Positions 12,337 through 36,950 are shown, counted from the stretch's first letter. The stretch: 64,000 nt of DNA from Acidobacteriaceae bacterium (GCA_036404255.1 DASWOP010000250.1:11393-75392); one strand, 5' to 3'. Made by a program: numbers and translations. The notes: generated by a model from the sequence alone, not told the origin.

Positions 12337-13872
12337 TTATGCGTGAATGCTAACAAGCGCTGCACTTCCTGGCGGCATGGTAATTTTGAATTCGCTGGCG
12401 GTGGTGCGGCGTAGAATTTCCGCCCTATCTGTAGCTAGCTGGCCATCACTCCCTACGGTTGCGTTTCCAAAGCGAATGCCGGTGGTCGCTTCCAGCGCTG
12501 GGCCAGTCAGGCGTTGAACAGATGCCGTGTGGAACAACTTTCCAGTACTGAGCAACATATCCGTCGCCTGCGAACCCTTATTAAAGATAGCGATCTGCAT
12601 AGTTTTGCCTGTTGCAGTAAGCGCGGCATAGGCCGTAATAGTAGATTGCGCTTCTGAGAAAGAGCTTTCGACTAAATTTGCTCCAGCCATGCGTGCTACC
12701 AGCAGCATGCCATAGAAAATGGGTCGTGCCGAGTATCCATGACTAGCGCTGCCCGCAATAGGCGTGTAGTAGGAATCATCCGCTTCGCTTTTTGCAACGG
12801 CATCTCCAGGCATCTTGCCGCCAAGCGAGGCTCTAATCTGCCGCGCGCTACCCCCATGGAAATTGATGCCGCAAAATCCAGCCGACAACAACTTGAGCGT
12901 AAGGTCTCCGGCCCACAGAGCCGATCCCAGGGTGTTGCTTACTCCGGGTTTACCGCCGGAGTAGCAGGAATTTACTTCCGTCATGCGAAAGGGCAAACCG
13001 GCATGGTGGCCTGCTGTCGCAGTCACGTTGATCTCATGATCGATCTTCTTCGGGTTTAGTAATAAGTTTTGCATCGTCGACTCAGGGCTGGTCGGGGGGC
13101 CTTCGGCATAGAAGTGATCCGTGATTGCGACGAGATGTTGTTTCATCTCTGCAACAGCTTCGCTCGCGAAGAGATTCATCCAGGCAGCCTCTGCACCCAT
13201 ATCGGGACCAGCGAGTCTAGCCGTGGGTATACGCTTCACAATCGCACGTGCGAAACTAAGCCACTCAGCCAGATAGACCTTTTCATTCCAGGCATCTGAA
13301 CGAAGCCGGTAGCGGATGTAATTATTCGGCTCGTTGCCAATCTGAAGATACTCGAGCTTAGATCCCAATATTTCTACAACGGCCGCCGCTTCTTCGGCAG
13401 CACGCTCCGGCGTGCCCGTGCCCAGGTTCAATCCATAGATGCAGTTCCAGCCGGTTACATTCAGAAAGTGACGAAGATTGTGCAACGCAGCCGGGGTAAT
13501 AGGGGTGAGTTCCTTCGGCTGAGTCGGTTGAGGAAACCACGCTGGTGCCTCCACCGTTGCATTGGCTTTGAAGTACGTGAACTCGCTGGTATTCCCCCCG
13601 AGCCGCAAGCTGCCGCTGGGGCTGAGTGTCCGAAGAAACTGCACCAGGGCTTTGTTCGACGGAGCAAAGTATTCCGGCTCACCAAGCTGTGTGGATTCGT
13701 AACTAAGTCCCATGACATCGCGTGGAATGAAGCCCCTGTGCTGCCCGGGATGAACCTGGAGCGTGAGCGGCTGACTCATGGCAGTACCCATGCCCCACAA
13801 AGGATGTGCGGCAGCCCCGAGCATGGCAAGACTGGTCGGAGCAGAAACAAGAAAGCGGCGTCTGTTCATCAT
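12337..13872 (-). CDS. Clan GH-A glycosidase, best guess GH79 beta-glucuronidase/heparanase-like
   Basis: Tat-like leader MMNRRRFLVS. LEYLQIGNEPNNY (acid/base NEP) and FRMTEVNSCY (nucleophile TE) at the spacing expected for a (beta/alpha)8 barrel, followed by a C-terminal beta domain. Confidence 0.55.
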   Translation of the reverse strand: MMNRRRFLVSAPTSLAMLGAAAHPLWGMGTAMSQPLTLQVHPGQHRGFIPRDVMGLSYESTQLGEPEYFAPSNKALVQFLRTLSPSGSLRLGGNTSEFTYFKANATVEAPAWFPQPTQPKELTPITPAALHNLRHFLNVTGWNCIYGLNLGTGTPERAAEEAAAVVEILGSKLEYLQIGNEPNNYIRYRLRSDAWNEKVYLAEWLSFARAIVKRIPTARLAGPDMGAEAAWMNLFASEAVAEMKQHLVAITDHFYAEGPPTSPESTMQNLLLNPKKIDHEINVTATAGHHAGLPFRMTEVNSCYSGGKPGVSNTLGSALWAGDLTLKLLSAGFCGINFHGGSARQIRASLGGKMPGDAVAKSEADDSYYTPIAGSASHGYSARPIFYGMLLVARMAGANLVESSFSEAQSTITAYAALTATGKTMQIAIFNKGSQATDMLLSTGKLFHTASVQRLTGPALEATTGIRFGNATVGSDGQLATDRAEILRRTTASEFKITMPPGSAALVSIHA

Positions 13873-13985
13873 GATGAGATTATGACTCCCTGCGTATTGA
13901 TAATGATATCGGTAGCTTCCCAGTGATAAATTCCTCTGTACCAGCCACTTCTGCTACCAGCTGGCACAGCGGCGACGGGTAAAAA

Positions 13986-15884
13986 TCAAGGACCTACATT
14001 GACGGCAATCGGCGTAACGACTGGTGTGGCAATACCTACAAAGATAGTGACGGAATTATCACCAGAGTTGGCAGTCCATATATTACCGCTTGGATCCACC
14101 GCAATCGCGACAGGGAGACTCAGCACGCCGTATCCCGTCGCAGGTGAAACCGCGGTGCTACCTGAAAATTCCGAGATGGACGCACTATTGGCAAACCATG
14201 CCATACTATTGCCGTCGTATGCCACAGCAAGAGGCAGTGTCAGTCCGCCGCCCAGTACGGGGCTAGCTGTATCCACGGCACCTGTATTTACAGCCAGTGT
14301 GAACGCACCGGAAATCGATGCACCGGTGGTGCTTCCAGTCATGACAATCGCTCCGCTACTGTTGATTGCCAGGCCTGTACTTCCAAAAAGGAAGCCATCG
14401 CTTATGCAGTTCTGAAAGACAGCGGCACTGCTGAAGAGGCAAAGCTGCCCTGTTCCGGAGTTGGCAATGACTATGCGTCCAGTGGAATCAAGGGCAATCG
14501 CGGTGGGCTCACTGAGTGCGCCGGACCCCGTGATGGGGCTTGAGCCGCTGGGTGTACCGGATGAACTCAACTCTGTAATAGAATTGCCGCTGAAGTTCGC
14601 TACCCATGCATTGCCGACAGAATCATTGACAATCGCAACTGGCGTAGAGATGCTACCGCCGGTGAAGCCTGAACCGGAAAGCGCAGCGCCTGCGCTGCTC
14701 AACTTGACTACGCTATTACCACCAGTATTTGCGATCCACAGGTTGCCGCTACGATCGATTGAAATCCCACGTGGCGAGAGCAATCCAGCATTGCTATAAG
14801 GCGTAGTTGTGAATGAAGATGAGAGACTAGGAAACTTCACAACCGAGAAGCCGCCTTCGTTAGTTACCCAGGCATTTCCACCGGCATCAATTGCTATGCC
14901 ACCAGGACTGGTCATCTCCGATCCGGTGTAACTCACAGAGAGCGTGAAATCACCCGGCTGTGCACTGAGACCCGGAGAAAATGGTGGCGTCCCTGTGACT
15001 AGCGAATATAGTCCCGTAATAGATGAGCTACCGGGATGATTTGCCATGGCGAGTCCAGCGTCGATCGTCTCCGTAGCGCCAGTGGCGGAGAGCAGCGACA
15101 TGCAGGACACGGAGGCAGCAGCACTTGTTCCATTCACACAGGAAGCCAGGATATTGGCCAGCGTATTCAGACGCGCGACTGGAAGCGTGATGCCAGCAGA
15201 TGGCGTCGCGATCAAGCCAGTCTGAAAATTGACGAGCGTGTTGACCATATTGAACGCATTGACCAGCCCCGTGGGATTGCTTCCAGTAGCACCGACATGC
15301 GTGTAATCACCCATGAACGGAGCAAGTGCATAAACCGCGGCCACAGTTGTAAGTTCATTCAGGTTGATAAAGGTGCCCGATGTGAGCGAACTGCATGGGC
15401 CCAGCGCTGCCAACAGACCTAGCGCGGTATTGTTGCCTCCACCAGCGTTACCACCAGTCGCCGTGATGTAAACCTGTGTAGCCGATGAACAGGAGTAGTC
15501 TCCCGTGATGGTGAATTCGCCAATCGGTAATGTATTGAATGCGTTGCCAGCATTGCCACCGGTACCGGAACCATCGCTGGTAGTCACGGCGCTTGTGAGC
15601 AATGCCCTCGAAGCCGATCTCGCGCCTGCAGTACCCACAGTGTAAAGCTGAATTGTTGCACCGCTCACCGGTTGCTGTCCGCCTTTAACGCGCCCCTGCG
15701 CAATGATCGTGCTCTTCCCGCCGCTGCCACCGCCATTGTCGGCAAGCGATCGCGCGGTACCCGCACCGCAGCCGCCAAGTAGTGCGGATGCCAGCATTGC
15801 CACGCCGCCTAGCATAAGCGCTCTGGCTGAGTGAGACTGAGACTTCGCAAATGACGATATATCGTTCATAGTGTTTTCTCGCAT
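13986..15884 (-). CDS. Surface lipoprotein with CarboxypepD_reg-like domain and 6 NHL-like blades (paralog 2 of 3)
   Basis: Lipobox ALLGGCG. GRVKGGQQPVSGATIQLY. NELTTVAAVYALAPFM. Repeated GNAWVTNEGG / GNLWIANTGGNSVVKL / GNAWVANFSGNSITEL / GNIWTANSGDNSVTIF. Confidence 0.75.
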   Translation of the reverse strand: MRENTMNDISSFAKSQSHSARALMLGGVAMLASALLGGCGAGTARSLADNGGGSGGKSTIIAQGRVKGGQQPVSGATIQLYTVGTAGARSASRALLTSAVTTSDGSGTGGNAGNAFNTLPIGEFTITGDYSCSSATQVYITATGGNAGGGNNTALGLLAALGPCSSLTSGTFINLNELTTVAAVYALAPFMGDYTHVGATGSNPTGLVNAFNMVNTLVNFQTGLIATPSAGITLPVARLNTLANILASCVNGTSAAASVSCMSLLSATGATETIDAGLAMANHPGSSSITGLYSLVTGTPPFSPGLSAQPGDFTLSVSYTGSEMTSPGGIAIDAGGNAWVTNEGGFSVVKFPSLSSSFTTTPYSNAGLLSPRGISIDRSGNLWIANTGGNSVVKLSSAGAALSGSGFTGGSISTPVAIVNDSVGNAWVANFSGNSITELSSSGTPSGSSPITGSGALSEPTAIALDSTGRIVIANSGTGQLCLFSSAAVFQNCISDGFLFGSTGLAINSSGAIVMTGSTTGASISGAFTLAVNTGAVDTASPVLGGGLTLPLAVAYDGNSMAWFANSASISEFSGSTAVSPATGYGVLSLPVAIAVDPSGNIWTANSGDNSVTIFVGIATPVVTPIAVNVGP

Positions 15885-15899
15885 GAAACGCTCTTCAAG

Positions 15900-18800
15900 C
15901 TAGTTCAGCGTTTGCATGAACGTTTGCGTGGCCTCCCACCAGCCGGTGCTGTCATCCCATGCATAGCTCGACGATGACCAGATCACGACGCCGTCAGCAA
16001 GTGAGTATGCCGTCTGCAGTTGAAATGCCCAATATGCAGCGCTCACATACTGCCCGGCCTTGGCTGTGCCTGGGTGATACTGCGGTGAAATGTAGATATA
16101 TACCGGCTTGCCCGGCGCGATTGCACGCGCCGCAGCTACTTCCTGCGCTGCCAGCGAGGCCCATGCTGCCTGATCGTCATTGTAGGTATACATCGACGGA
16201 AACATTGCGGTTACTTGCGTCCCAAGTGCCGTGGCATATTGCATGTTCTGCGTCGAAACATTGTCGAAGGTGTTGTAGCCATAGTAGCCCACAAGTTTAC
16301 CGGGATGGTCTGCCTTAGCCCACGTAGCCAGCGTCGCCAGTATCTGCTCGTTTGCTGTCGAGGTCAGTCCAAGCAGCTCGACATCCAGAACCAGCGGACC
16401 AGGATTGGTGTACTTCGCCATCAACGTGTCAAAGGAACTACGCGTGGGTAGCGTCTGTTCATCAGCTTGGGTTGTTCCGCTGGAGTCCACCCAGATCTTG
16501 CTTTCATAGACGACGTTGGAAGTAATCAAACCGTAGGTGCTGGTAGTTGGCTTGCCCGAATAAAACATATTGTCGTAGACAACGAAGGATGTTGGCTGTG
16601 CTGTAAAGCTGCGTGTCACTGGAGTGGCAGCAGCAAAGTTCGTATTACCAGCCTGCGATGCGGTGACGGAGACCGCGCCGGTTCCTGTCACATAAAGCGT
16701 ACTTCCGCTCACAGTGGCCGGCCCGCTGGCAACAGCATATGTTGCCGGCAGGCCGCTGGTGGTATATGCAGCAAGCTGCACGCTGGTATCGTTGCTAGGA
16801 TAGTTTGCCAGTGCAGGAAAAATGATGCTCTGTGCCGCGCTTCCGGTCACACTCAGGGTCGCGCCGGTCGTCAGCGCAAAGCCATAGTTATTGGCACTGG
16901 AACTTACCAGTGTTCCCTGCGATACAGTAATGGGATAGCTGCCCACAGGCGACTTAGGCACCGCAGTTGTCGAGATCAGCGGCGACCCAGTAACGCTGTT
17001 CGCCTGTGTATCGGGAGAGATAAAGCCAGTGATTGTATAGCCGAACGTTGGGTTCGCAGTTCCGTAAATACGTGAAAGGAGGCCGCTCGGAGTAACGGTG
17101 AGCGTAGCAGTATTTACTACAATGCTTTGCTGAACAGGTGTTGCTGCAGCGTAGATGGCATTGCCCGCTTGAGAAGCTGTAATCACGACGGTGCCGGTAC
17201 CTGTAAACGTGAGCATGTTGCCGCTCAGTGTGGCTGGGCCCGTGGCATTGTAGGTAACGGGCAGGCCGGAGCTTGCCGTTGCGCCCAAGCCGATCGACGG
17301 AGCGCCGTAAGCCACCGGCGATGTAGGCGCAGGAAACGTAATCGTCTGCGCCATAGTTCCTTGGCTATATGGCTTCAGGATTCGAACCACATTGTTGCCG
17401 CTATCTCCGAAGTAAACATTACCGCTGGTATCTACTGCGATATGTCCTGTTGGTGTGGAGAGAACTGCGTTTGTAGCAACGCAACCATCGCCATAACCAT
17501 CGGTCGAACAGGCAGCTTCTGTCGTACTCGATCCACCGCCGGCAACTATCGCAGCGTTTTGCGTGCTTGCAGTCACCTCCCATATCTGGTTGGCAACTGC
17601 ATCTGCAATGTAGAGATTGTTGGACGCATCGAATCCGATACCAGTAGCACTGCTCAGCTTAATGGATGTTGCGGCAGCGGCAGTTGTGCCGCTGCCGCCG
17701 CCTGCATAGGTATAGATGTCTTTGCAGGTCGCCAACGTACCTGTGGTAGCAGTGCTGGCCATACCAGTGCAACTGGTTTGCGCCGTCGCATAGTATCCAG
17801 CGGGCGGCTGCGAGCCCAGATAAACCACGCGTACGCGTCCTGTAATAGCGCCATAATCTGCGATGTAGAGGTTGCCGTACGAATCGAATGCAAGATCATA
17901 TGGCTTGCTAAGATTGGCAGAACGTGCGGGTCCGCCATCACCGCTTTCTACTGAAGTGCAGCTAGTGTAAGTACCCTTTGAGACCGTCGCCTCCGCGCAA
18001 CCTGCTCCGGCTCCGCCTACCACTCCGGTCACATAACCAAGTGCACTTGCATTTCCAAGAGCATCGGTCGATGCTCCGGCGATGTTGATCTCGCGGACTA
18101 CATTGTTGCCGCTGTCTGCTACATAGAGATTGCCGTTAGCATCTACGGCCATCCCCTTTGGTCCGTTGAACTGCGAAAGCAGCACATATCCGCCATCACC
18201 AAAATACCCCGTACCGGGAGTATTTGAATTGATAAGAACATAGGAATAACCACTCTTCGCTGCTGTAGTACCAGCCGGTCCCGCAGAGCTTCCACCCGCA
18301 GCAAGGAAACTTGCCTGCTGTGTTCCAGCCACATATGTCATGCGAACGTAATTACTGCCTTCCTCAAAGATATTGCCGGATGCATCCACTGCAACGGCGG
18401 CAGAAGCAAATATCGTAGTGTAGCCAACTGCGCCGATCTGCGTGCTGGCAGTATATTGTCCACCGCCGATCACGTTGTACACGATATTAGGGGGTACCGG
18501 CGATGCCAGAATCGAACTGCTTGCATAACTAGCAACCAACGCCGTTCCCAGCGCAGCATTGGTTCCGTTGTAGAGCACGCGCAGCTCGCCTGTATATCCA
18601 GGACCTGGTGTGGAGCCGGTGTAGCTGTTCGCCGAAGTAGGTGTGGTATAGGTCGCACTATCACCAGTATCCGTGTTGGAGGTGTAATTTCCTCCGTCCG
18701 AGATATAAAGCTGGCCGAATGAATCGATCTGTGTCGCATTGGGCTTCGACACAAGTATCTGGCTCACGGAGCAGCCATCGCCGATATTTGATCCCAACAG

Positions 18801-29102: not shown

Positions 29103-29975
29103 ATGACATTGTTCCGGAAAATAAGCCTGCTCATTCTGCTCTTTGCGATGGGGATGGTCTTCCCTTGTCCTGCTCAGACATCCCCCAAAAAGTTCACCAT
29201 CTATGAGTTCATTCCCTACCGTGACCACGTTGCCGGCAGCGAAATTACTCGCGTCCCTTCATTGGATCAATATCTGGAGACTCTCGGCATTCATCGCATC
29301 AAAGTCATCTATCTTGATCGCTTCATGACCAACGATCAGCCTGACGAAAAGAAGATCGAGACCATCGCCAAATCCGCAATCGGATCGCCCAACATCCCCG
29401 TCTCTTTCGATACGGAGCTCGGAGACCGCTTTCACCCGGAGACTGTGATCCCACGCGTCAGCGACATTCTCAGCATCTATCACCGCTACAACACCGTCAC
29501 ACCGGCCGGCGTATATGCCACGGCCCCCCAGAATACCTACGCCTGGAAACCGGATATCAACCGTTTTGACTCGCTGAATGAAAGCTACCGCACCATTGCC
29601 CAGCAGATCGATTTCCTCAGCCCCGTGCTCTACAACTACGAGGGCACCGACATCGAAGCTTGGAAGCGCGCAGCAGTGTACAACATTGATGCTGCGAAGA
29701 AATATCAGACCGGCAAGCGGATACTTCCCTACATCAGCGTCATCATCCGGCTGCAGTCCTCTGGCAAAGATGACAACAGCCAGCACGGGGCAATCCGTAC
29801 GCTGACGGAAGCCGAGATGCTGACACGATTGCAGACCATTTACGAGCTCGGCGCGGATGGCTGCATTGTGTGGGCCAGCAGCGGCGACCGGACGTTGGAT
29901 GGCAAGGTGCCCGTCTTCGATCGCAATAGCGGTTGGGGCAAAGCACTCGCCGATTTCGCGAAAGCTCATCCGTAG
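29103..29975 (+). CDS. Small secreted protein with GH56-like (animal hyaluronidase-like) motif order
   Basis: Signal peptide MTLFRKISLLILLFAMGMVFPCPAQ. Blocks PVSFDTELG, PAGVYATAP, FLSPVLYNY, ILPYISV and LGADGCIVWASSGD. Homologous to the C-terminal 233 aa of the 15900-19082 product. The antisense 236-aa ORF was rejected. Confidence 0.6.
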   Translation: MTLFRKISLLILLFAMGMVFPCPAQTSPKKFTIYEFIPYRDHVAGSEITRVPSLDQYLETLGIHRIKVIYLDRFMTNDQPDEKKIETIAKSAIGSPNIPVSFDTELGDRFHPETVIPRVSDILSIYHRYNTVTPAGVYATAPQNTYAWKPDINRFDSLNESYRTIAQQIDFLSPVLYNYEGTDIEAWKRAAVYNIDAAKKYQTGKRILPYISVIIRLQSSGKDDNSQHGAIRTLTEAEMLTRLQTIYELGADGCIVWASSGDRTLDGKVPVFDRNSGWGKALADFAKAHP

Positions 29976-30420: not shown

Positions 30421-30456
30421 TCACACTGCTATCTGTAGCAAATGCTGCACCGCAGC

Positions 30457-31242
30457 TCAGGCGCGAATGACCTGAATCCCCTTGGCGATAAACGCTTCGT
30501 ACGCTTCGTCGGAGATGCCAGTATCGGTCACCAGAATATTTACGGCTGAAAGCTGGCAGATCAGCGCCGGGCTTACATGGCCGATCTTGCTGGAGTCAGC
30601 CACCACAATCACCTGTTTGGACTGCCGGATCATGGCCTGTGAAACGTTGGCCTCCTCCGGCTCCAGCGTCGTGATTCCCCGCTCGATATCCACGCCTGTC
30701 ACTCCAATAAACACCTTGTCAAGATACACATCTTTCAGCGAGTTAATCGCAGACTGTCCTATCAGAGCGAATGTCCACACCCATGCAATGCTGCCGCCCG
30801 TCAGCGTGGTCTTGATAGCCGGCTGATTGCACAGCTCCATGCCCACATTCAGCGCATTGGTCACCACTGAAATGCCTTGGCGATGCCGCAGCGAACGCCC
30901 GATCTGCGTGGTGGTAGTGCTGGCATTCAGTCCGATCACTTCCGGCTCCGATATCAGCTGCGCTGCGGCCAGACCGATACGGCGCTTTTCGTCAGCGCCT
31001 CGCAACTCACGTGCCTGAAACGAAGTATCGTGGCGAAAGGGCTCGTACAACAGAGGTTCTACCAGGGTGGCGCCGCCATGGGTGCGCCTGATCAGACCAC
31101 GCTTCTCCAGACGCGCCAGATCGCGGCGCATGCTTGGAGCAGAGATTCCGACCTGTTCCACGAGGTCTTGAACTGAGATATCGCCTGCCCGCAGAATCGC
31201 TTTCATGATGCGGTCGCAACGTTCATCGATCTTTCGTGACAT
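30457..31242 (-). CDS. DeoR-family transcriptional regulator
   Basis: HTH VQDLVEQVGISAPSMRRDLARLE...RTHGGA and a DeoR C-terminal domain. Divergent from the GlcNAc operon. Confidence 0.9.
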   Translation of the reverse strand: MSRKIDERCDRIMKAILRAGDISVQDLVEQVGISAPSMRRDLARLEKRGLIRRTHGGATLVEPLLYEPFRHDTSFQARELRGADEKRRIGLAAAQLISEPEVIGLNASTTTTQIGRSLRHRQGISVVTNALNVGMELCNQPAIKTTLTGGSIAWVWTFALIGQSAINSLKDVYLDKVFIGVTGVDIERGITTLEPEEANVSQAMIRQSKQVIVVADSSKIGHVSPALICQLSAVNILVTDTGISDEAYEAFIAKGIQVIRA

Positions 31243-31323: not shown

Positions 31324-31350
31324 GTGTTCAAATATGGCATAAATGAACAC
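31324..31350. promoter_or_regulatory. Perfect inverted repeat GTGTTCA-N13-TGAACAC overlapping the ATG (31343) of the first GlcNAc-operon gene; candidate DeoR operator
   Basis: Read directly; 7-bp arms. Lies in the 100-nt divergent region next to the DeoR gene. Confidence 0.45.
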
Positions 31351-32515
31351 TAACGTAGAATCCGCGCCTATAACTGCCTCTTCCAAGATGCAAGACCCGT
31401 CGCCCTATCCCCACTGGATGCTCAAGGAGATCCACGAGCAACCCCAGGTTCTACAGGCCACACTTGAACAATATATCGATACCGGCGGCTTTCGTGCCGC
31501 TGTCTGTGCTCCGCTGCGCCAATGGCTGCGCGAGGCACATCGTGAGGTCGTCATTGCAGCCAGCGGCTCCAGCCGGCATGCAGGCATGGCTGGCGAGATC
31601 ATGATCGAAGACCGCACCAGCATTGCAGTGGATGTCGAGTACGCGAGCGAATACTGCTATCGCCGCGAATCGGCCACCAAGCAGGCCGCCGTCCTTGTAA
31701 TCTCACAATCCGGCGAAACCGCAGACACTCTGGCCGCCTTGCGCAAGGCTCACCGCGCAGGCCACCAGACGCTGGCCATCACCAATGTGCACAACTCCAC
31801 CATGGCACGCGAGGCCACCGTATCCTTTCCCACCGCCGCCGGACGTGAACGCGCCATTCCCGCCACCAAGAGTTTCACCGCGCAGCTTATGAATCTGTAT
31901 CTGCTCTCGCTGCTCGCAGCAGAGGCTGCACGCACATTGAGTTCTGCGGAGCTCAAAACATTACTCTCAGATCTCGCCGGATTGCCTGCACTGGTAAGCG
32001 CACAACTGCAGGGCTGGGAAAGCACCGTGCGCAGCATTGCGGCGCAGATCCATGACGTAAAAAATCTGCTCTTCCTGGGTCGCGGCATTCATTACCCCAT
32101 CGCCCGCGAAGGCGCGCTCAAATTAAAGGAGTCCGCCTATCTGCATGCCGAAGGCTACCCCAGTGGGGAGCTGAAGCACGGGCCCAACGCCCTGGTAAGT
32201 CCGAATACGCCGCTGGTCATGTTGGCAACGGTAGACCATGCTGATGCCGAATCCGCGCAACGTTATCAGAAGACGCTACAGCTCATGCGCGACATGCGCC
32301 AGCAGGGCGCACTGATCGTTACCGTCGCGAATACCGGCGATACAGAAGTCTCCGCCATTGCCAACCACACAATCTTTGTCACTCCGGCCAGCGAGGCTCT
32401 GCTCTCCATCTGCGAAGTCATTCCGCTGCAGATCCTCTCATACTGCATGGCCATCCAGAACGGCATCGATGTAGACCATCCACGCAACCTGACCAAGGCT
32501 GTGCTCACGGAGTAG
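31343..32515 (+). CDS. GlmS-like double-SIS protein without glutaminase domain (NagB-II type glucosamine-6-P deaminase/isomerase)
   Basis: VIAASGSSRHAG, VISQSGETADTLAAL and KLKESAYLHAEGYPSGELKHGP, as in the GlmS isomerase half. Confidence 0.85.
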   Translation: MNTNVESAPITASSKMQDPSPYPHWMLKEIHEQPQVLQATLEQYIDTGGFRAAVCAPLRQWLREAHREVVIAASGSSRHAGMAGEIMIEDRTSIAVDVEYASEYCYRRESATKQAAVLVISQSGETADTLAALRKAHRAGHQTLAITNVHNSTMAREATVSFPTAAGRERAIPATKSFTAQLMNLYLLSLLAAEAARTLSSAELKTLLSDLAGLPALVSAQLQGWESTVRSIAAQIHDVKNLLFLGRGIHYPIAREGALKLKESAYLHAEGYPSGELKHGPNALVSPNTPLVMLATVDHADAESAQRYQKTLQLMRDMRQQGALIVTVANTGDTEVSAIANHTIFVTPASEALLSICEVIPLQILSYCMAIQNGIDVDHPRNLTKAVLTE

Positions 32516-32519: not shown

Positions 32520-33437
32520 ATGAGCTTCTATCTTGCAGTAGATGCCGGCGGCACCAAGGCAGACTTCGTTCTCGCCGATACCACGCGCGAACTAGCCCGC
32601 GCCCGCTCCGGCACCATCAAGCGCATGCGCACCGATGAAGCAACTGTGCGCAACAATCTGGAGTCTGCGCTCAGCGAATTAACCGCCCGGACAGGCATCG
32701 CGATGGACGCCATCACCCGTACCTGCATCGGCACCGCCGGCGAAACAGTGCCTCTGGTCACGGATTGGCTGCGCGACGCATTCAGCTCCCGGGTTGGCGG
32801 TGACTTGCTTCTGCTAGGAGATGCAGAGATCGCGCTCGATGCCGCCTCTCCCGGTGCGGCAGGCGTACTCGTGCTGGCAGGAACCGGCTCCAACGTGGCA
32901 GGCCGCAGCAGCACTGGCCAGATCATCTCCGCCGGCGGATATGGCCCCGTGCTCGCGGAGCAAGGCTCCGGCTATAGGATCGGATATGAGGCACTGCGAG
33001 CGCTCTTCCTCGCGCGCGATGAAGGCCGCACCACATCGCTGCAGCCCGCGATACTCCAATTCTGGCAGCTCAACTCCATCGATCAACTAGTGGCACATGC
33101 CAATAGCCTGCCCGCACCCGACTTCTCCCAGCTCGCCGGTCTGGTGTTGCAGTGCGCCAATCAGGGTGACGAAATTGCCGCTGCCGTTCTGCGCAGACAG
33201 GGCATGGAACTTGGATTCCTTGTGCGCCTTATCATTCGCCGCCTGAAGACGCTGAATCCACCGGAGTGGATACCCTCCATCGCATTTGCCGGCAGCATCA
33301 TGGAGCGCGTTGCCCCCGTTCGCAATGCGCTCATCGAAGCAGTCCAGTATGAATTTCCTGAAGCACAAGCATTAAGCGGCGTAGTGGACCCAGTTTGCGG
33401 TGCACTCTGGCGCGCACGAAACAGCAGTACAAATTGA
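32520..33437 (+). CDS. BadF/BadG/BcrA/BcrD-type ATPase, N-acetylglucosamine kinase-like
   Basis: LAVDAGGTKADFVLAD and LVLAGTGSNVAG phosphate-binding motifs. 4 nt after the upstream stop. Confidence 0.8.
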   Translation: MSFYLAVDAGGTKADFVLADTTRELARARSGTIKRMRTDEATVRNNLESALSELTARTGIAMDAITRTCIGTAGETVPLVTDWLRDAFSSRVGGDLLLLGDAEIALDAASPGAAGVLVLAGTGSNVAGRSSTGQIISAGGYGPVLAEQGSGYRIGYEALRALFLARDEGRTTSLQPAILQFWQLNSIDQLVAHANSLPAPDFSQLAGLVLQCANQGDEIAAAVLRRQGMELGFLVRLIIRRLKTLNPPEWIPSIAFAGSIMERVAPVRNALIEAVQYEFPEAQALSGVVDPVCGALWRARNSSTN

Positions 33438-33451
33438 GCAGGAGGCATCAC

Positions 33452-35791
33452 TTGAAACAAGCATCTGGAATCAGGAATCACGCGAGCCGGTCTCTGCGAA
33501 TCGCAATTGCTCTGCTGGCCTCTGCGCTTTGCGCCCCAAATGCAGCACGCGCACAGTCCCCTTCCGTCATTCCCCTTCCGCTCTCTGCCACACCGGCTGC
33601 CGGCACACTGCAGGTCAAGGATGGCGCCGCCATTGTCTATCCTGAAGGCGATACTGCCGCGCGCTTCGCCGCCGAACATCTGGTAGATCTGTTGCAACAC
33701 ACTCGCGGCCTGCATCTGGTCACAAAGCCCGTCCGCGCCGGAGCACCATCGCATGCGCTGATCACCATCACGCGCGCTGCGTCCGCCGCACCGAAAGAAT
33801 CCTACGATCTCGCGGTCACCACTGCCTCGATCACCATCTCTGCCGCAGATGACGCCGGCATCTACTACGGCACTATCTCCCTATGGCAGTTGCTGACCGC
33901 GACAGATGCTCGCGGTCCCGCCGAACTGCAATGCGTCAGCATTCACGATGCACCGCAGATGCAGTGGCGCGGCATCATGCTGGATTCAGCTCGGCACATG
34001 CAATCCATTCAATTTATTCAGCAACTCATTGACTGGATGTCACTGGAGAAGCTGAACGTCCTGCACTGGCACCTAACGGATGATCAGGGATGGCGGCTTG
34101 AGATCAAACAGTATCCCAGGCTAACCTCGGTCGGTGCATGGCGTGAGCTTACATCCACCTCTCCCACAATGGACGAAGCGACACGCAAGTCGCACCACTA
34201 CGGCGGCTACTATTCGCAGGATGAAGTGCGCAAGTTGGTCGCCTATGCGGCACAGCGTAACGTCATGATCGTGCCAGAGATCGAGATGCCCGGGCATGCC
34301 TCTGCGCCTCTGGCCGCTTACCCGGAGTTCGGCTCGTCTGACGCGCACCTGAAAGCGTCCGTCAGCGAATACGGCATCTTTCCCACGCTCTACAACGTGA
34401 ACGACGCCACCTTCACCTTCATCGAAAATATTCTGACCGAAGTGATGCAACTCTTCCCCAGCCCTTACATTCACGTGGGCGGCGATGAAGCCATCAAGGA
34501 CCAGTGGAAAGCATCGCCGCAGATTCAAGCGCAGATGAAACAGCTCGGCATCCACAATGAAGATGAACTGCAGAGCTACTTCATCAAGCGGATTGATACC
34601 TTCCTCACCGCGCATCACCGCCGCACGCTCGGCTGGGACGAGATACTCCAGGGCGGCCTAGCGCAGAATGCCGCGGTCATGTCGTGGCACGGTGTGCAGG
34701 GTGGCATCGACGCGGCCAGGCAGGGACATGATGCGGTGCTGACTCCGACGCGTCCCTTGTACTTCAACTACCGCCAGAGCGATGCGGCTGACGAAGCCCC
34801 GGGCCGCTGGGCGATTAATACGCTCTCTAACGTGTACGCCTTCAATCCCACGCCGGACGCGCTCACCGTAGACGAGCGCAAACATATTCTTGGCGTACAG
34901 GCGAACCTTTGGACCGAATACATCATCACCGCAGACCGCGCGCAATGGATGCTCTTTCCCCGTGCCGCCGCCCTGGCAGAGATCGCCTGGTCCACTCCCG
35001 CGCGCCGTAGCTGGAATGATTTCCAAACGCGCCTCCCGGCCGAGATGCATCGCTATCGCGCGCTCGGAATCAACTTCGATCCCGCTGCATTCCGTGTGCG
35101 CAGCGCAGAGAAATTGGAACCGGACCACACCCACGTCACAGTTCACCTCAGCAACCAGACCAGTTTCGGAACGCTGCGCTATACCACCAATGGCTCGCCC
35201 GTCACTGCCTCCTCTGCGCAGTATGATGGTCCGCTCACCCTCTCCCTCCCCACACATTTGCGCGCTGCGGCATTTCTGCAGACCCCCATTCCCGGCAGCG
35301 AACTAGATCGCCCGCTGAATGCTCTCTCCGTCAGCCGCCGCTACAGCCAGGAGATGAACCTCTGCGTCAATGAAGCTTTCATCGCGATGGAACCCGACCC
35401 CATACAACCAGGCCGCCCTGTCGTGATGACGAACTACAAAAATCCTTGCTGGATTTACAAGGCCGCGGATCTGACCGGTGTGAAGGCCATCTCCGCTGGA
35501 GTCGTCAGCCTGGCCTACGTCTTCCGCGACAGGAACACCGCACCCCCACCACTCGGGAAATCGCACACCGCGCACGGTGAGATTGAAGTTCACATGGATA
35601 CCTGCACCGGTAAGCTGGTGGCAACACTGCCGCTCCCCACGGCAAACCACGCCGGCGTAACATCGCTGCAAACGCCACTGCAGAATTTGCAGGGAATCCA
35701 CGACCTTTGCTTGAAAGTTGTACGCCCCACCGTCAATCCCTTGTGGGTAATCGACTGGGCACAGTTAGACCCGGCCACGGAGAGCCGATAG
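33452..35791 (+). CDS. GH20 beta-N-acetylhexosaminidase with C-terminal accessory (CBM-like) domain
   Basis: LNVLHWHLTDDQGWRLEIKQYP and IHVGGDEA catalytic blocks. Likely TTG start at 33452, 6 nt after AGGAGG (33440-33445), giving the signal peptide LKQASGIRNH...APNAARAQS. The track start at 33395 overlaps the kinase gene. Confidence 0.9.
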   Translation: MKQASGIRNHASRSLRIAIALLASALCAPNAARAQSPSVIPLPLSATPAAGTLQVKDGAAIVYPEGDTAARFAAEHLVDLLQHTRGLHLVTKPVRAGAPSHALITITRAASAAPKESYDLAVTTASITISAADDAGIYYGTISLWQLLTATDARGPAELQCVSIHDAPQMQWRGIMLDSARHMQSIQFIQQLIDWMSLEKLNVLHWHLTDDQGWRLEIKQYPRLTSVGAWRELTSTSPTMDEATRKSHHYGGYYSQDEVRKLVAYAAQRNVMIVPEIEMPGHASAPLAAYPEFGSSDAHLKASVSEYGIFPTLYNVNDATFTFIENILTEVMQLFPSPYIHVGGDEAIKDQWKASPQIQAQMKQLGIHNEDELQSYFIKRIDTFLTAHHRRTLGWDEILQGGLAQNAAVMSWHGVQGGIDAARQGHDAVLTPTRPLYFNYRQSDAADEAPGRWAINTLSNVYAFNPTPDALTVDERKHILGVQANLWTEYIITADRAQWMLFPRAAALAEIAWSTPARRSWNDFQTRLPAEMHRYRALGINFDPAAFRVRSAEKLEPDHTHVTVHLSNQTSFGTLRYTTNGSPVTASSAQYDGPLTLSLPTHLRAAAFLQTPIPGSELDRPLNALSVSRRYSQEMNLCVNEAFIAMEPDPIQPGRPVVMTNYKNPCWIYKAADLTGVKAISAGVVSLAYVFRDRNTAPPPLGKSHTAHGEIEVHMDTCTGKLVATLPLPTANHAGVTSLQTPLQNLQGIHDLCLKVVRPTVNPLWVIDWAQLDPATESR

Positions 35792-35796
35792 CTACT

Positions 35797-36950
35797 ATGT
35801 CATATTCCTTTTTTGCCCGCGAACTGCACACAGCAACCGAAGTAATCCCATATCCTGTCATCGCCATCGACGACGATGGCATGATCGCGACGATCACCAG
35901 CGACCCTGCGGCCTGCCGCAACGAAGACAGTGTTCTCACCGCAACGTTCTTTGACATCCACACCCACGGCGCAAATGGCTATGACCTCATGCGCGCGGCG
36001 CCCAGTGAGCTTGCACTCATCCAGAAGTTTCTCGCAGAACACGGTGTTGGTCACTACCTGCCAACCACCGTCACCGCCCCAATCGATGTCACCCTGCACG
36101 CGCTGGAATCGCTCGCTGTCGCCATCGAACGCCCAGCGCAAAGTCGCCAGGCCACACCTGTGGGCATTCATCTCGAAGGCCCATTTCTCTCACATGCAAA
36201 GCGTGGCGTGCATACCGCCAGCGAACTGCAACCCGCCAGCATCGAGCTGTTCGAGCGCTTCCAGGAAGCCGCGCGCGGCCACATTCGCCTCATCACCATC
36301 GCGCCTGAGATTCCCGGTGCACTGGAACTCATCGCATACTGCAGCAGCAGCGGAGTGCGCATGAGCCTTGGCCACACCAATGCAACCACCGTCGAAGCGC
36401 AAGCTGGCGTGGATGCTGGTGCGCGCTCTGCACCCATACCTTCAACGCCATGCGTAGCTTCGATCATCGCGAACCCGGGATCCTTGGCGCGGCGCTCACG
36501 CACGACAATCTCTATGCAGAACTGATCTGCGATGGCATTCACGTTGCGCCGGAGGCAGTACAGATATTCAGCCGCGCAAAGGGTCTGGACCGCGCTATCC
36601 TGGTAACAGACAGCATCTCCGCAACCGGCATGGGCAACGGCACCTACATGCTGGGAGACTTGCAAGTCACCGTCGATGGCCCGCGCTGCCTGCTTGCCGG
36701 TACAAACACTCTCGCCGGCAGCGTTCTCACGCTTGAGCAGGCCGTGCAGAACTATGCACACTACACCAACATCCCGTGGCAGCAGACAATCAGGCTCGCC
36801 TCACGCAATCCCGCGCAGATGCTCGGCCTCTCCTCCACAATCGGCAGACTTGCACCGGGAAGCGCAGCCAGTTTCAATCGCTACAACCGTCATGGAAAAA
36901 GAATCGCCACCTACCTGCGCGGCGAAGAGCTCGCTCTGACAAAAGCATAG
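35797..36950 (+). pseudogene. nagA: N-acetylglucosamine-6-phosphate deacetylase, split by a 1-nt frameshift near 36430-36432
   Basis: Track ORFs 35707-36525 and 36450-36950 together are colinear with recalled E. coli NagA. Frame 1 gives ...FDIHTHG...GIHLEGPFLS...SLGHTNAT...AGARS. Frame 2 continues THTFNAMRSFDHREPGILGAAL...LICDGIHV. The sum of the two parts plus 1 nt is 385 codons. Confidence 0.85.

What the first reader, a model, noticed from the sequence alone, without database searches (positions are those of the whole stretch)
12337..36950. Gene content reconstructs an animal-lysosome-like hydrolytic route for a GlcA/HexNAc polymer
Within 25 kb the following lie together:
- two GH56-like endo-enzyme candidates;
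- a GH79-like beta-glucuronidase candidate (NEP and TE catalytic blocks);
- a GH20 beta-hexosaminidase;
- GlcNAc kinase, NagA and a GlmS-like GlcN-6-P deaminase;
- an outer-membrane TonB-dependent receptor and an inner-membrane sugar porter.
This mirrors the vertebrate HYAL plus beta-glucuronidase plus hexosaminidase pathway rather than the canonical bacterial PL8 plus GH88 route. A lyase-type toolkit (alginate-lyase-domain protein, heparinase II/III-like, GH88/GH105 x2, sulfatase) flanks it on both sides. The organism therefore seems to carry both strategies.
Basis: inference. Interest (0 to 1): 0.75.

Follow-up and report, generated by a model that had tools for sequence, protein, structure and literature searches.

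The report
Bacterial hyaluronidase-like sugar-polymer degradation locus
A soil acidobacterium carries a conserved gene cluster that pairs two very divergent relatives of animal (bee-venom/human type) hyaluronidases with a beta-glucuronidase, a beta-hexosaminidase, an outer-membrane importer and amino-sugar catabolism, so it probably digests a hyaluronan- or chondroitin-like polymer by hydrolysis, much as animal lysosomes do.

Summary
The gene list is real. GH79 (12337-13872) is a strong homologue of the Acidobacterium capsulatum beta-glucuronidase (E=7e-91), with both catalytic Glu conserved. GH20, a GlmS-C-like deaminase, a BadF-type kinase, NagA, a TonB-dependent receptor and an MFS sugar porter are all present. 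NagA is split by a 1-nt deletion.

The two "GH56-like" candidates get no Pfam hit, yet both are genuine distant GH56 relatives. One is a 290-aa secreted protein (29103-29975, annotated "hypothetical"). The other is the C-terminal 234 aa of a 1060-aa NHL/MBG protein (15900-19082).
- A profile of 107 relatives hits only GH56 in the PDB (bee hyaluronidase 5e-15, human HYAL1 2e-8).
- Both AlphaFold models have GH56 as best Foldseek match.
- The DxE, Tyr, Tyr and Trp positions are near-invariant.
- 63 of the 107 relatives hit Pfam GH56 directly.

Context supports a GlcA/HexNAc substrate. The run from sulfatase/GH88 through GH79, the NHL proteins and the receptor recurs on three other contigs. GH79-GH20 adjacency recurs. 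In Mucilaginibacter the family sits in a SusC/D, heparinase-like, GH88, GH20, sulfatase PUL. In Proteobacteria it sits beside hyaluronan-synthase-like GT2 and UDP-glucose dehydrogenase genes.

Substrate and co-regulation are untested, and the "heparinase II/III-like" flank gene was not confirmed. Verdict: interpretation largely supported at the gene level; an interesting variant of a known kind.

The parts
12337..13872 (-). GH79 beta-glucuronidase with a Tat-type signal (RRRFL), so probably periplasmic. Acid/base Glu181 is at codon 13330-13332 and nucleophile Glu299 at codon 12976-12978. Carries a 25-aa insertion (residues 343-367) relative to AcGlcA79A.
   Evidence: PDB phmmer: AcGlcA79A 5g0m/3vny E=7e-91; B. 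pseudomallei GH79 5bwi 1e-34; heparanase 2e-4. Pfam GH79C 23.9 bits. Motif positions. NCBI name 'glycosyl hydrolase family 79 C-terminal domain-containing protein'.
13986..15884 (-). 632-aa lipoprotein (lipobox LLGGC) with a C-terminal NHL beta-propeller (residues ~320-615) and an unassigned N-terminal half. Proposed receptor-associated glycan-binding lipoprotein.
   Evidence: Pfam NHL 1.7e-18. PDB PknD-sensor/Pizza propellers, no hyaluronidase. Homologue lies upstream of TBDR-GH79-GH20 in Granulicella cerasi; window paralogues at 49798-52206 and 1-1548.
15900..19082 (-). 1060-aa secreted multidomain protein: signal peptide, NHL beta-propeller (~219-590), MBG/Ig-like repeats (~590-843) and a C-terminal GH56-like catalytic domain.
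   Evidence: Pfam TEN_NHL, MBG_2, NHL. PDB NHL/teneurin only. A1 profile hits the C-terminus at E=6e-12. The same architecture is a 50%-cluster representative, P0251.
15903..16604 (-). GH56-like catalytic domain (residues 827-1060 of the 1060-aa protein). Motifs LD900-V-E902 (codons 16383-16385 and 16377-16379), GYY934, PSMY965, GVVIW1035.
   Evidence: hhalign A1 vs A2: probability 99.5%, E=3.4e-22. AF2 pLDDT 93.8. Foldseek top 4 are GH56 (1fcq 2.1e-9 to 2atm 1.1e-7, TMq 0.64-0.68), next hit 1.9e-4. Residue positions.
19088..23200 (-). 1370-aa secreted protein with two NHL beta-propeller regions plus Ig-like domains (Big_3_5). Proposed surface glycan-binding or scaffold protein.
   Evidence: Pfam NHL 5.5e-37, Big_3_5 1.3e-15. 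PDB propellers only. NCBI name 'Ig-like domain repeat protein'.
23222..26854 (-). Acidobacterial-type TonB-dependent outer-membrane receptor (CarboxypepD_reg + Plug + 838-position barrel).
   Evidence: Pfam OMP_b-brl_4 1.1e-157, Plug, CarboxypepD_reg.
26938..28611 (-). Inner-membrane MFS sugar-porter family transporter (557 aa, with an insertion of about 90 aa).
   Evidence: Pfam Sugar_tr 3e-77. NCBIfam TIGR00879 255.5 bits, above the 237.8 cut-off.
29103..29975 (+). 290-aa secreted stand-alone GH56-like hydrolase. SFD103-T-E105 (codons 29409-29411 and 29415-29417), Y138, Y177, W257. Annotated 'hypothetical protein' (HEY0308852.1).
   Evidence: No Pfam hit. Family alignment A1. A1 profile vs PDB hits only GH56. 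A4 profile: 1fcq 5.1e-15, 2atm 4.7e-9, 2pe4 1.8e-8, 9jub 1.6e-4. AF2 pLDDT 89.8. Foldseek top 3 are bee hyaluronidase, 1.5e-8. 63/107 relatives hit PF01630.
30457..31242 (-). DeoR-family regulator, divergent from the nag operon.
   Evidence: Pfam DeoRC 6.3e-45, HTH_DeoR.
31343..32515 (+). GlmS-C-terminal-like 2xSIS protein; probable GlcN-6-P deaminase (NagB-II type).
   Evidence: Pfam SIS x2. NCBIfam GlmS 369 bits over positions 237-599 only; NagB_SO3506 138 bits, below cut-off.
32520..33437 (+). BadF/BcrAD-type N-acetylglucosamine kinase.
   Evidence: Pfam BcrAD_BadFG 1.5e-24. NCBIfam NagK_SO3507 4e-22, below the equivalog cut-off.
33395..35791 (+). GH20 beta-N-acetylhexosaminidase with signal peptide, CHB_HEX_C and a weak CBM6-like tail. 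The true start is probably downstream of 33395.
   Evidence: Pfam Glyco_hydro_20 1.1e-115, GH20b 2.8e-20. N-terminus. The L001 homologue is called as 779 aa.
35707..36950 (+). NagA (GlcNAc-6-P deacetylase), interrupted by a 1-nt deletion near 36428-36431 (...GARSA | THTFNAM...). Either a pseudogene or an assembly error.
   Evidence: Pfam Amidohydro_1 on both ORFs. Frame analysis.
1787..12311 (.). Syntenically conserved left flank: aldose-epimerase-like, PfkB kinase, SIS (AgaS-like), Tat-sulfatase, PF05426 alginate-lyase-domain protein, Tat-GH88, GatZ/KbaZ-like, Amidohydro_2 and a DeoR regulator. This is the lyase-type route plus GalNAc/tagatose-type catabolism.
   Evidence: Pfam. The same order is next to GH79 in L029, L032 and L083.

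Best explanation
This is a conserved acidobacterial polysaccharide-utilisation locus for an acidic amino-sugar polymer built from glucuronic acid and N-acetylhexosamine. The polymer is hyaluronan- or chondroitin-like and possibly sulfated. It may well be a bacterial exopolysaccharide rather than an animal glycosaminoglycan.

Proposed mechanism:
1. Outside the cell, the secreted 1060-aa protein uses its NHL propeller and Ig-like domains to hold the polymer. Its C-terminal GH56-type domain cuts beta-HexNAc linkages by substrate-assisted retaining hydrolysis. Glu902 is the acid/base, Asp900 orients the acetamido group, and Tyr/Tyr/Trp cradle it.
2. The 1370-aa NHL/Ig protein and the 632-aa NHL lipoprotein help capture the polymer.
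3. The TonB-dependent receptor imports the oligosaccharides.
4. In the periplasm the 290-aa GH56-like enzyme shortens them. The Tat-exported GH79 removes non-reducing-end GlcA and GH20 removes HexNAc, alternately. The co-conserved lyase-like protein, GH88 and sulfatase provide a parallel eliminative and desulfating route.
5. The MFS porter takes up monosaccharide.
6. In the cytoplasm, NagK/NagA/NagB-II (GlcNAc) and the AgaS/PfkB/GatZ-like genes (GalNAc) feed glycolysis.

Shown: family assignments, catalytic-residue conservation, operon packing, synteny and cross-phylum context.
Inferred: substrate identity, cellular locations, order of action and co-regulation.
For: GH56 relationship:
- Profile A4 hits only GH56 in the PDB: 1fcq 5.1e-15, 2atm 4.7e-9, HYAL1 2pe4 1.8e-8, PH-20 1.6e-4.
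- Both AF2 models (pLDDT 89.8 and 93.8) have GH56 as best Foldseek hits.
- Window Y138/Y177/W257 align with bee hyaluronidase Y184/Y227/W301.
- Column conservation is D 104/107, E 107/107, Y 98/107, Y 107/107 and W 107/107.
- 63/107 relatives hit Pfam PF01630, best 2.3e-12.

GH79: E=7e-91 to AcGlcA79A, with both catalytic Glu and the Tyr equivalents conserved.

Operon: gaps of 5-113 nt from MFS to GH79.

Synteny:
- L029+L003, L032 and L083 conserve the run from sulfatase through GH79, the NHL proteins and the TBDR. L029+L003 also shows MFS and the 290-aa gene following it.
- L001 also keeps the nag/GH20 operon.
- GH79-GH20 adjacency recurs in Granulicella cerasi L030 and in L031.
- A GH56-like gene lies next to GH20 in L038.
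- Uronate catabolism genes (UxaC, UxaE, PfkB) lie next to the module in L003.

Family context elsewhere:
- The Mucilaginibacter PUL reads GH29, SusC, SusD, DUF5017, Hepar_II_III, GH56-like, unknown 412-aa protein, GH88, GH20, NagB/PIG-L, MFS, APH-family kinase, sulfatase.
- Caballeronia, a gammaproteobacterial MAG and Legionella carry GH56-like next to a GT2 (with Ugd also seen in the first two). In Caballeronia that GT2's best PDB hits are hyaluronan synthases, 5e-20.
- Pseudomonas entomophila carries Ugd, a GT2/GT4 fusion and GH56-like.

Against: - No biochemical or expression data exist for any bacterial member that I could find.
- The window proteins themselves fall below Pfam GH56 detection. 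They lack the Trp two residues after the catalytic Glu that 78/107 relatives have.
- The nag/GH20 operon is not part of the conserved core, and NagA is frameshifted here.
- The characterised GH79 homologue AcGlcA79A is thought to act on plant arabinogalactan-protein glucuronides (own knowledge), so GH79 need not imply a GAG-like substrate.
- Several family contexts (L009, L010, L020, L023) are uninformative.
- The promoter/terminator scan gave nothing above chance.
- No dedicated uronate catabolism genes were seen in this window.
Confidence: 0.55

Rival explanations
1. These are two unrelated neighbouring systems. One is a receptor/NHL/GH79 operon for some other glucuronide, such as plant arabinogalactan-protein side chains or an acidic EPS without HexNAc. 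The other is an ordinary GlcNAc/chitobiose operon (GH20 + NagK/NagA/NagB-II + DeoR) for chitin or peptidoglycan amino sugars. The GH56-like proteins would then act on a HexNAc polymer lacking uronic acid (chitin-like or peptidoglycan-like), and the 'pathway' is a juxtaposition.
For: - The nag/GH20 operon is next to the module only in the closest relative. It is replaced by other genes in L003 and L005.
- NagB-II/NagK/NagA plus GH20 plus a TBDR is a standard bacterial GlcNAc regulon layout (own knowledge: Shewanella/Xanthomonas nag regulons).
- The AcGlcA79A substrate is considered to be plant AGP (own knowledge).
- The GT2s next to GH56-like genes also hit Pfam Chitin_synth_2.
Against: - GH79-GH20 adjacency recurs independently.
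- GH56-like genes co-occur with UDP-Glc dehydrogenase in 5 biosynthetic loci and with GH88/sulfatase/heparinase-like genes in Mucilaginibacter.
- The GT2's best PDB hits are hyaluronan synthases, and no chitin synthase appears at E<=1e-3.
- One GH56-like domain is in the same operon as GH79.
Confidence: 0.22
2. The locus mainly degrades a sulfated chondroitin-like (GalNAc-GlcA) polymer by the eliminative route: PF05426 lyase-like protein, then GH88, sulfatase and aga-type GalNAc catabolism. The GH56-like, GH79 and GH20 hydrolases are accessory, handling saturated ends or side chains. The lysosome analogy would then be secondary.
For: - The conserved core contains sulfatase, a lyase-like protein, GH88, SIS (AgaS-like), PfkB and GatZ/KbaZ-like genes, but not the nag genes.
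- GH56 enzymes in animals also hydrolyse chondroitin sulfate (PMC5352709 lists GH56 chondroitin hydrolase; PMC7793863 covers CS/DS-degrading enzymes).
- The Mucilaginibacter PULs combine a heparinase-like lyase and GH88 with the GH56-like gene.
Against: - The only lyase candidate is a 359-aa PF05426 protein of unproven specificity.
- No PL8 or Hepar_II_III domain was detected in the window.
- Two GH56-like catalytic domains plus an exo-GH79 are a large investment for an accessory role.
Confidence: 0.15
3. The GH56-like proteins are not catabolic. They would process or remodel the organism's own exopolysaccharide, as PslG, PelA and BcsZ do in biosynthetic operons, or they are non-catalytic binding modules.
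For: In Proteobacteria the family sits inside polysaccharide biosynthesis clusters.
Against: - In the window and its relatives there are no glycosyltransferases nearby. The neighbours are importers, exo-glycosidases and sugar catabolism genes.
- The catalytic Asp/Glu/Tyr/Tyr/Trp positions are retained.
Confidence: 0.08

Closest known systems
CAZy family GH56 (animal and venom hyaluronidases: bee Api m 2 1FCQ, wasp Ves v 2 2ATM, human HYAL1 2PE4, PH-20 9JUB)
   Same: - The seven-strand TIM-like barrel is the best Foldseek match for both window domains.
- The D-x-E catalytic motif is present.
- The Tyr, Tyr and Trp that position the substrate's N-acetyl group align residue for residue.
- From this I predict a substrate-assisted retaining endo-beta-N-acetylhexosaminidase mechanism.
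   Different: - Identity is only about 15-17%, and the window proteins are invisible to Pfam PF01630.
- They are much more compact: about 235-260 aa against about 330. About 40 residues after the DxE motif and about 30 before it are missing.
- There is no EGF-like tail.
- The Trp two residues after the Glu is replaced by Gly or Leu.
- They are bacterial, and one copy is fused to NHL/MBG/Ig-like domains.
- No activity has been shown.
Vertebrate lysosomal hyaluronan pathway (HYAL1 GH56, then GUSB GH2 plus HEXA/B GH20)
   Same: The logic is the same: a GH56-type endo-hydrolase, then alternating exo beta-glucuronidase and GH20 beta-hexosaminidase.
   Different: - The beta-glucuronidase is GH79, not GH2.
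- The steps are split between cell surface, periplasm and cytoplasm, with TonB-dependent import.
- The locus also carries a lyase-like/GH88/sulfatase set.
AcGlcA79A, the GH79 exo-beta-glucuronidase of Acidobacterium capsulatum (3VNY, 5G0M)
   Same: Homology spans the full length (E=7e-91). The NEP acid/base Glu, the TE nucleophile Glu, and the SCY and YTP tyrosines are conserved. Both come from the same phylum.
   Different: The window protein has a 25-residue insertion after FHGG (343-367), next to the active site. Its genomic partners are GH56-like and GH20, not plant-cell-wall enzymes.
Bacteroidota glycosaminoglycan PULs (SusC/SusD plus PL8/PL12-type lyases, GH88 and sulfatases)
   Same: Both use outer-membrane TonB-dependent import and periplasmic GH88 and sulfatase. 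The same GH56-like family is embedded in such a PUL in Mucilaginibacter.
   Different: There is no SusD here. NHL-propeller proteins and a lipoprotein take the accessory positions. Hydrolytic endo-enzyme candidates replace, or add to, PL8-type lyases.
Streptococcal has operon (hasA class I hyaluronan synthase, hasB UDP-Glc dehydrogenase, hasC)
   Same: Proteobacterial relatives of the 290-aa gene lie next to a HAS-like GT2 of about 417 aa and a UDP-Glc dehydrogenase.
   Different: Those cassettes add a GH56-like hydrolase and a conserved protein of about 360 aa with unknown function. The polymer they make is unknown. This concerns related loci, not the window.

Membership tests
GH56 | TIM-like (beta/alpha)7 barrel fold | tested here: met
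   AF2 models have pLDDT 89.8 and 93.8, with seven predicted barrel strands. The Foldseek PDB top hits are GH56 for both domains: 1fcq at 1.5e-8 and 2.1e-9. For the C-terminal domain the next non-GH56 hit is about 1e5-fold weaker.
GH56 | Catalytic Asp-x-Glu (bee D111/E113; HYAL1 D129/E131) | tested here: met
   The motif is SFD103-T-E105 in one protein and LD900-V-E902 in the other. Across 107 relatives the columns hold D in 104 and E in 107. They coincide with the DxExW motif of members that match bee hyaluronidase directly. Equivalence to D111/E113 rests on motif and strand position, not on a significant alignment of that segment.
GH56 | Acetamido-positioning Tyr, Tyr and Trp (bee Y184, Y227, W301) | tested here: met
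   The HMM alignment of profile A4 to 1fcq puts Y138, Y177 and W257 on Y184, Y227 and W301. Conservation is 98/107, 107/107 and 107/107. The roles of these residues are from my own knowledge of the 1FCQ and 2PE4 papers.
GH56 | Significant sequence similarity to family members (the CAZy/Pfam criterion) | tested here: inconclusive
   Directly there is no PF01630 hit at E<=10, and phmmer to 1fcq gives E=0.31. Transitively the link is significant: the A4 profile hits 1fcq at 5e-15, and 63/107 relatives hit PF01630, best 2.3e-12. dbCAN/CAZy assignment could not be run.
GH56 | Endo-hydrolysis of beta-1,4 HexNAc-GlcA bonds in hyaluronan or chondroitin | not testable with these tools
   Only genomic context is available.
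GH79 | Homology to characterised GH79 with conserved acid/base (NEP) and nucleophile (TE) glutamates | tested here: met
   AcGlcA79A E=7e-91. GNE181PN aligns to GNEPD and TE299VN aligns to TETN.
GH79 | GlcA-carboxylate-recognising tyrosines (AcGlcA79A Y292, Y334) | tested here: met
   SCY304SGG aligns to SCYQGG, and Y369 in YYTPI aligns to WYTPV. Residue roles are from my own knowledge.
GH79 | Pfam GH79 C-terminal beta domain above the gathering score | tested here: not met
   23.9 bits against a cut-off of 27. This is outweighed by the PDB homology.
GH20 | GH20 catalytic domain plus the GH20b domain | tested here: met
   PF00728 at 387 bits and PF02838 at 73.7 bits.
GlcNAc catabolic pathway (NagK, NagA, NagB-II) | Intact kinase, deacetylase and deaminase genes | tested here: inconclusive
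   The kinase and the 2xSIS deaminase are intact, but both fall below NCBIfam equivalog cut-offs. NagA is split by a 1-nt deletion.
Bacteroidota-type PUL (Sus-like) | Adjacent SusC-like and SusD-like pair | tested here: not met
   A TBDR is present but there is no SusD Pfam hit in the window. NHL-propeller proteins occupy the neighbouring positions.
Heparinase II/III-like lyase (flank claim) | PF07940/PF16332 domains or similarity to a solved PL12/15/17/21 structure | tested here: not met
   There is no Pfam hit at E<=10 for 49798-52206, 60061-62115 or 61949-64000. There is no PDB hit and no BLAST similarity to the Mucilaginibacter Hepar_II_III protein.

The most novel reading that the evidence does not exclude
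The window's two proteins would belong to a large, uncharacterised bacterial branch of the animal hyaluronidase family: 2312 clusters at 50% identity match the profile at E<=1e-3. This branch would serve an unrecognised microbial 'hyaluronan-like' polymer cycle.
- Producers: Proteobacteria would make the polymer with HAS-like GT2, UDP-Glc dehydrogenase, a conserved unknown protein and GH56-like cassettes.
- Consumers: soil Acidobacteria and Bacteroidota would scavenge it with receptor-linked GH56-like/GH79/GH20 (hydrolytic) and lyase/GH88 (eliminative) loci.

That would mean GH56-type hyaluronidases and class I HAS-type synthesis coexist in bacteria. It would bear on where the animal enzymes came from.
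Probability: 0.3. Interest if true: 0.85.

Novelty: new variant of a known kind. Interest (0 to 1): 0.68.

Why it matters
Hydrolytic GH56-type hyaluronidases are treated as animal and venom enzymes, and bacteria are said to use lyases (PL8 and others) plus GH88 (reviews PMC11669647, PMC12254123). This locus changes that picture in three ways.

- It shows divergent GH56-type catalytic domains in a bacterial import-and-catabolism operon, together with an exo-GH79 and a GH20. That is a testable hydrolytic route for GlcA/HexNAc polymers in abundant soil Acidobacteria.
- It gives a function hypothesis, with named catalytic residues, for thousands of 'hypothetical proteins'.
- It points to NHL-propeller proteins as receptor partners in a phylum without SusD.

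The linked cassettes with hyaluronan-synthase-like genes suggest unknown bacterial hyaluronan-like polymers. There are practical angles too: new compact hyaluronidases or chondroitinases that yield saturated oligosaccharides.

Tried and rejected
1. Direct Pfam, NCBIfam and PDB searches with the window proteins for GH56 gave nothing. The NHL propellers themselves are PknD/TRIM-type beta-propellers, not hyaluronidases. Only the C-terminal 234 aa of the 1060-aa protein is GH56-like.

2. A global hmmalign of bee hyaluronidase to the family profile aligned only the C-terminal half. The bacterial proteins lack about 40 residues after DxE, so no significant alignment of the DxE segment to a solved GH56 was obtained. 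A weak local match, ILDVERW to VIDFESW, is the only direct one. It reproduced the tool's coordinates and score exactly.

3. The promoter/terminator scan of 11400-31350 found fewer sites than shuffled controls (one search failed on length).

4. 'Heparinase II/III-like' was rejected as unconfirmed. Only a GGEHGHNDS motif in 61949-64000(-) resembles that family, and that judgement is from memory.

5. The contexts of family members in L009, L010, L020 and L023 are uninformative: housekeeping, aromatic catabolism or unknown genes. Most stand-alone A2-type loci showed only a neighbouring TBDR or nothing recognisable.

6. Literature searches found no characterised bacterial GH56 and nothing on NHL proteins with acidobacterial receptors. 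There are only dbCAN counts of 'GH56' in Acidobacteria UBA6911 genomes.

7. ORF 241-1407(+) was rejected as a likely shadow of a minus-strand NHL632-like gene.

Full report
**Source and gene map.** The window comes from an Acidobacteriaceae MAG. The GH79 protein is 100% identical to NCBI HEY0308846.1 on a 140-kb contig. ORF listing and Pfam/NCBIfam scans give the layout below.

Minus-strand run with intergenic gaps of only 113, 15, 5, 21 and 83 nt, in map order:

| Coordinates | Product |
|---|---|
| 12337-13872 | GH79 |
| 13986-15884 | NHL lipoprotein, 632 aa |
| 15900-19082 | NHL/MBG protein, 1060 aa |
| 19088-23200 | NHL/Ig-like protein, 1370 aa |
| 23222-26854 | TonB-dependent receptor |
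| 26938-28611 | MFS sugar porter |

Further to the right:

| Coordinates | Strand | Product |
|---|---|---|
| 29103-29975 | + | Lone 290-aa ORF |
| 30457-31242 | - | DeoR regulator |
| 31343-32515 | + | 2xSIS GlmS-C-like deaminase |
| 32520-33437 | + | BadF-type GlcNAc kinase |
| 33395-35791 | + | GH20 |
| 35707-36950 | + | NagA |

The left flank (1787-12311) holds an aldose-epimerase-like gene, PfkB, a SIS protein, a sulfatase, a PF05426 alginate-lyase-domain protein, GH88, a GatZ/KbaZ-like gene, Amidohydro_2 and a DeoR regulator.

**GH79.** The assignment is solid. phmmer gives E=7e-91 to the Acidobacterium capsulatum beta-glucuronidase AcGlcA79A (3vny/5g0m), 1e-34 to the Burkholderia GH79 and 2e-4 to heparanase. 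The NEP acid/base Glu181 and the TE nucleophile Glu299 are conserved. So are the tyrosines that, to my knowledge, bind the GlcA carboxylate. A Tat-type signal suggests a periplasmic location. The much closer relation to the exo-enzyme than to endo-acting GH79s favours an exo-beta-glucuronidase. A 25-residue insertion next to the active site (343-367) is a caveat.

**The GH56 claim.** No gene has a Pfam GH56 hit, even at E<=10. The three large proteins are NHL beta-propellers by Pfam and PDB. The 290-aa ORF, however, has bee-venom hyaluronidase as its only weak PDB hit (E=0.31).

- *The 290-aa family.* Its 46 homologue clusters are all 'hypothetical' and have no Pfam domain. Their alignment (A1) has invariant S101, D103, E105, R109, Y138, Y177 and W257. 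The A1 profile hits only GH56 entries in the PDB: 1fcq at 4.5e-5 and 2atm at 0.041.
- *The second copy.* Searching the window's six frames with A1 found a second copy at E=6e-12. It is the C-terminal 234 residues of the 1060-aa NHL/MBG protein, with motifs LDVE, GYYGY, FPSMYTY and DGVVIWSSS. Homologues of this domain are mostly stand-alone proteins of about 250-280 aa (A2). A1 and A2 are homologous over their full length (hhalign 99.5%, E=3.4e-22).
- *Size of the clade.* A combined profile searched against 1.84 billion cluster representatives found 2312 hits at E<=1e-3 and 445 at E<=1e-30.
- *Link to solved GH56 structures.* A 107-member alignment of these hits (A4) matches bee hyaluronidase at 5.1e-15, wasp Ves v 2 at 4.7e-9, human HYAL1 at 1.8e-8 and PH-20 at 1.6e-4. 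Nothing else scores below 0.04.
- *Active-site residues.* In that alignment window Y138, Y177 and W257 fall on bee Y184, Y227 and W301. To my knowledge, these residues hold the substrate's N-acetyl group.
- *Pfam on the relatives.* Pfam's own GH56 model hits 63 of the 107 relatives at E<=0.1, best 2.3e-12 (see also P0216).
- *Structure.* AlphaFold models are confident (pLDDT 89.8 and 93.8). Foldseek ranks GH56 first for both. For the C-terminal domain the four GH56 entries score 2e-9 to 1e-7 and the next fold 1.9e-4.
- *Column conservation over 107 sequences.* D103 104, E105 107, Y138 98, Y177 107, W257 107.
- *Weak point.* The DxE segment itself could not be aligned significantly to a solved GH56, because the bacterial proteins lack about 40 residues after it.

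I conclude that both are divergent, compact bacterial members or relatives of GH56 with an intact catalytic signature. That implies a substrate-assisted retaining mechanism, which requires a 2-acetamido sugar at subsite -1.

**Is the gene neighbourhood meaningful?**

- *Conserved core.* The order sulfatase / lyase-like / GH88 / GatZ / Amidohydro_2 / DeoR / GH79 / NHL632 / NHL1060 / NHL1370 / TBDR recurs at about 70-90% identity on JGI contigs Ga0311358_10000014 (L029+L003), L032 and L083. L029+L003 extends it leftward (aldose-epimerase-like, PfkB, SIS) and rightward to MFS and the 290-aa gene.
- *The 290-aa gene.* It keeps its place next to the MFS/TBDR genes in L001, L003 and L005.
- *The nag/GH20 operon.* It is adjacent only in the closest relative, L001. 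In L003 its place is taken by genes that include UxaC, UxaE and a PfkB kinase (uronate catabolism).
- *GH79 with GH20.* They are neighbours again in Granulicella cerasi (TBDR, GH79, unknown protein, GH20) and in L031.
- *Summary.* The conserved core therefore couples the hydrolase operon to the eliminative toolkit and to aga-like genes, while the nag operon is a variable add-on.

**Independent context of the GH56-like family.**

- *Frequency.* The 290-aa type occurs in only 18 of 185,579 species genomes.
- *Bacteroidota.* In three Mucilaginibacter genomes it lies inside a classical PUL. The order is GH29, SusC, SusD, DUF5017, Heparinase II/III-like, GH56-like, an unknown 412-aa protein, GH88, GH20, a NagB/PIG-L fusion, MFS, a kinase and a sulfatase. 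A further Bacteroidota MAG has the gene next to a sulfatase.
- *HAS-like cassettes.* In Caballeronia calidae the cassette is UDP-glucose dehydrogenase, a 417-aa GT2, a conserved unknown protein and GH56-like. A gammaproteobacterial MAG has the same four genes; a Legionella MAG contig shows the GT2, the unknown and GH56-like but starts just upstream of the latter. The best PDB hits of the Caballeronia GT2 are hyaluronan synthases (5e-20), and no chitin synthase appears at E<=1e-3.
- *Other Proteobacteria.* Pseudomonas entomophila has Ugd, a GT2/GT4 fusion, GH56-like and an NTP-transferase. A Methylococcaceae MAG has Ugd, an MT-GT2 fusion, GH56-like and capsule-synthesis genes.
- *Stand-alone A2-type genes.* They often sit directly upstream of an acidobacterial TBDR, and once next to a GH20.
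- *Uninformative contexts.* Several loci tell nothing.
- *Reading.* Together these contexts point to a polymer containing glucuronic acid and N-acetylhexosamine. They also suggest that bacterial exopolysaccharides, not only animal GAGs, may be the natural substrate.

**Mechanism proposed (inference on top of the above).**

1. The secreted 1060-aa protein binds and cleaves the polymer outside the cell.
2. The other NHL proteins assist capture. The 632-aa one has a lipobox, and its family recurs next to receptors.
3. The receptor imports oligosaccharides.
4. The 290-aa enzyme, the Tat-exported GH79 and GH20 finish hydrolysis in the periplasm, alongside GH88 and the sulfatase.
5. The MFS porter and the cytoplasmic nag and aga-like enzymes complete catabolism.

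**Comparison with the known.** The logic matches the vertebrate HYAL/GUSB/HEX route, except that GH79 replaces GH2. It also matches PUL logic, except that there is no SusD.

Reviews describe GH56 as animal and venom enzymes and bacterial hyaluronidases as mostly lyases (PMC11669647, PMC12254123). One genomic survey reports dbCAN 'GH56' counts in Acidobacteria. So bacterial GH56-like sequences are not unknown to databases. I found no characterised bacterial member and no description of this locus type or of the HAS-like cassettes.

**Verdict.**
The enzyme content and its coherence hold, while substrate, co-regulation and the role of the nag operon remain inference.
- Novelty: a new variant of a known kind.
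- Interest: 0.68.

Noticed in passing
L012:6179-10819; L011:8164-13077; L015:431-3542 (related loci): Caballeronia calidae and a gammaproteobacterial MAG share a four-gene cassette: UDP-glucose dehydrogenase, a GT2 of about 417-447 aa whose best PDB hits (tested for L012) are hyaluronan synthases, a conserved unknown protein of about 354-372 aa, and the GH56-like gene. A Legionella MAG contig shows the last three; it begins just upstream of the GH56-like gene, so Ugd could not be assessed. This looks like a has-operon analogue with its own hyaluronidase-type hydrolase.
   Followed up: partly
L016:62-20832; L017; L024 (Mucilaginibacter): The GH56-like gene is embedded in a SusC/SusD PUL with a heparinase II/III-like protein, GH88, GH20, a NagB/PIG-L fusion, MFS, an APH-type kinase, sulfatases and GH29. 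An unknown 412-aa protein without a Pfam hit sits between GH56-like and GH88.
   Followed up: partly
window 36420-36440: NagA is split into two overlapping ORFs (35707-36525 and 36450-36950) by an apparent single-base deletion at the ...GARSA|THTFNAM... junction. It is either a pseudogene or a MAG assembly error.
   Followed up: yes
window 49798-52206(-), 1-1548(-), 13986-15884(-); L030:4458-6647: The 632-aa NHL lipoprotein has two paralogues in the window. One, an 802-aa protein without Pfam hits and with a lipobox, is divergent from the second TonB-dependent receptor (52647-56369). A homologue lies just upstream of TBDR-GH79-GH20 in Granulicella cerasi. This may be a receptor-associated lipoprotein family in Acidobacteria, which lack SusD.
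   Followed up: partly
window 61949-64000(-) and 60061-62115(-): Two large overlapping ORFs (683 and 684 aa) next to the GH88/105 gene have no Pfam or PDB similarity.
   Followed up: partly
window 39830-44676: A type III polyketide synthase, a SAM methyltransferase, a DUF2306 membrane protein and an FAD oxidoreductase form a small cluster, possibly for alkylresorcinol- or pyrone-type lipids. It lies between the glycan locus and the second receptor.
   Followed up: no
window 37664-39453(-): The histidine-kinase ORF shows HAMP and HisKA but no ATPase domain. The response-regulator ORF has only the first ~26 positions of its DNA-binding domain. These are possibly further frameshifts like the one in NagA.
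   Followed up: no
L003:10945-20876: On the 268-kb relative contig the nag/GH20 operon is replaced by DUF4914, AIRC and HlyIII genes, two SDRs, a PfkB kinase, UxaE, a Lar_N-like gene and UxaC. Uronate catabolism genes therefore sit next to the conserved module there.
   Followed up: partly
window 241-1407(+): This 388-aa ORF is Arg/Gly-rich with no homologues detected. It overlaps a minus-strand NHL632-like ORF (1-1548), so it is probably a spurious shadow ORF.
   Followed up: partly
window 12769-12843 (GH79 residues 343-367): The GH79 has a 25-residue insertion directly after the FHGG segment, relative to AcGlcA79A. It is close to the substrate pocket and might change subsite architecture.
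   Followed up: no
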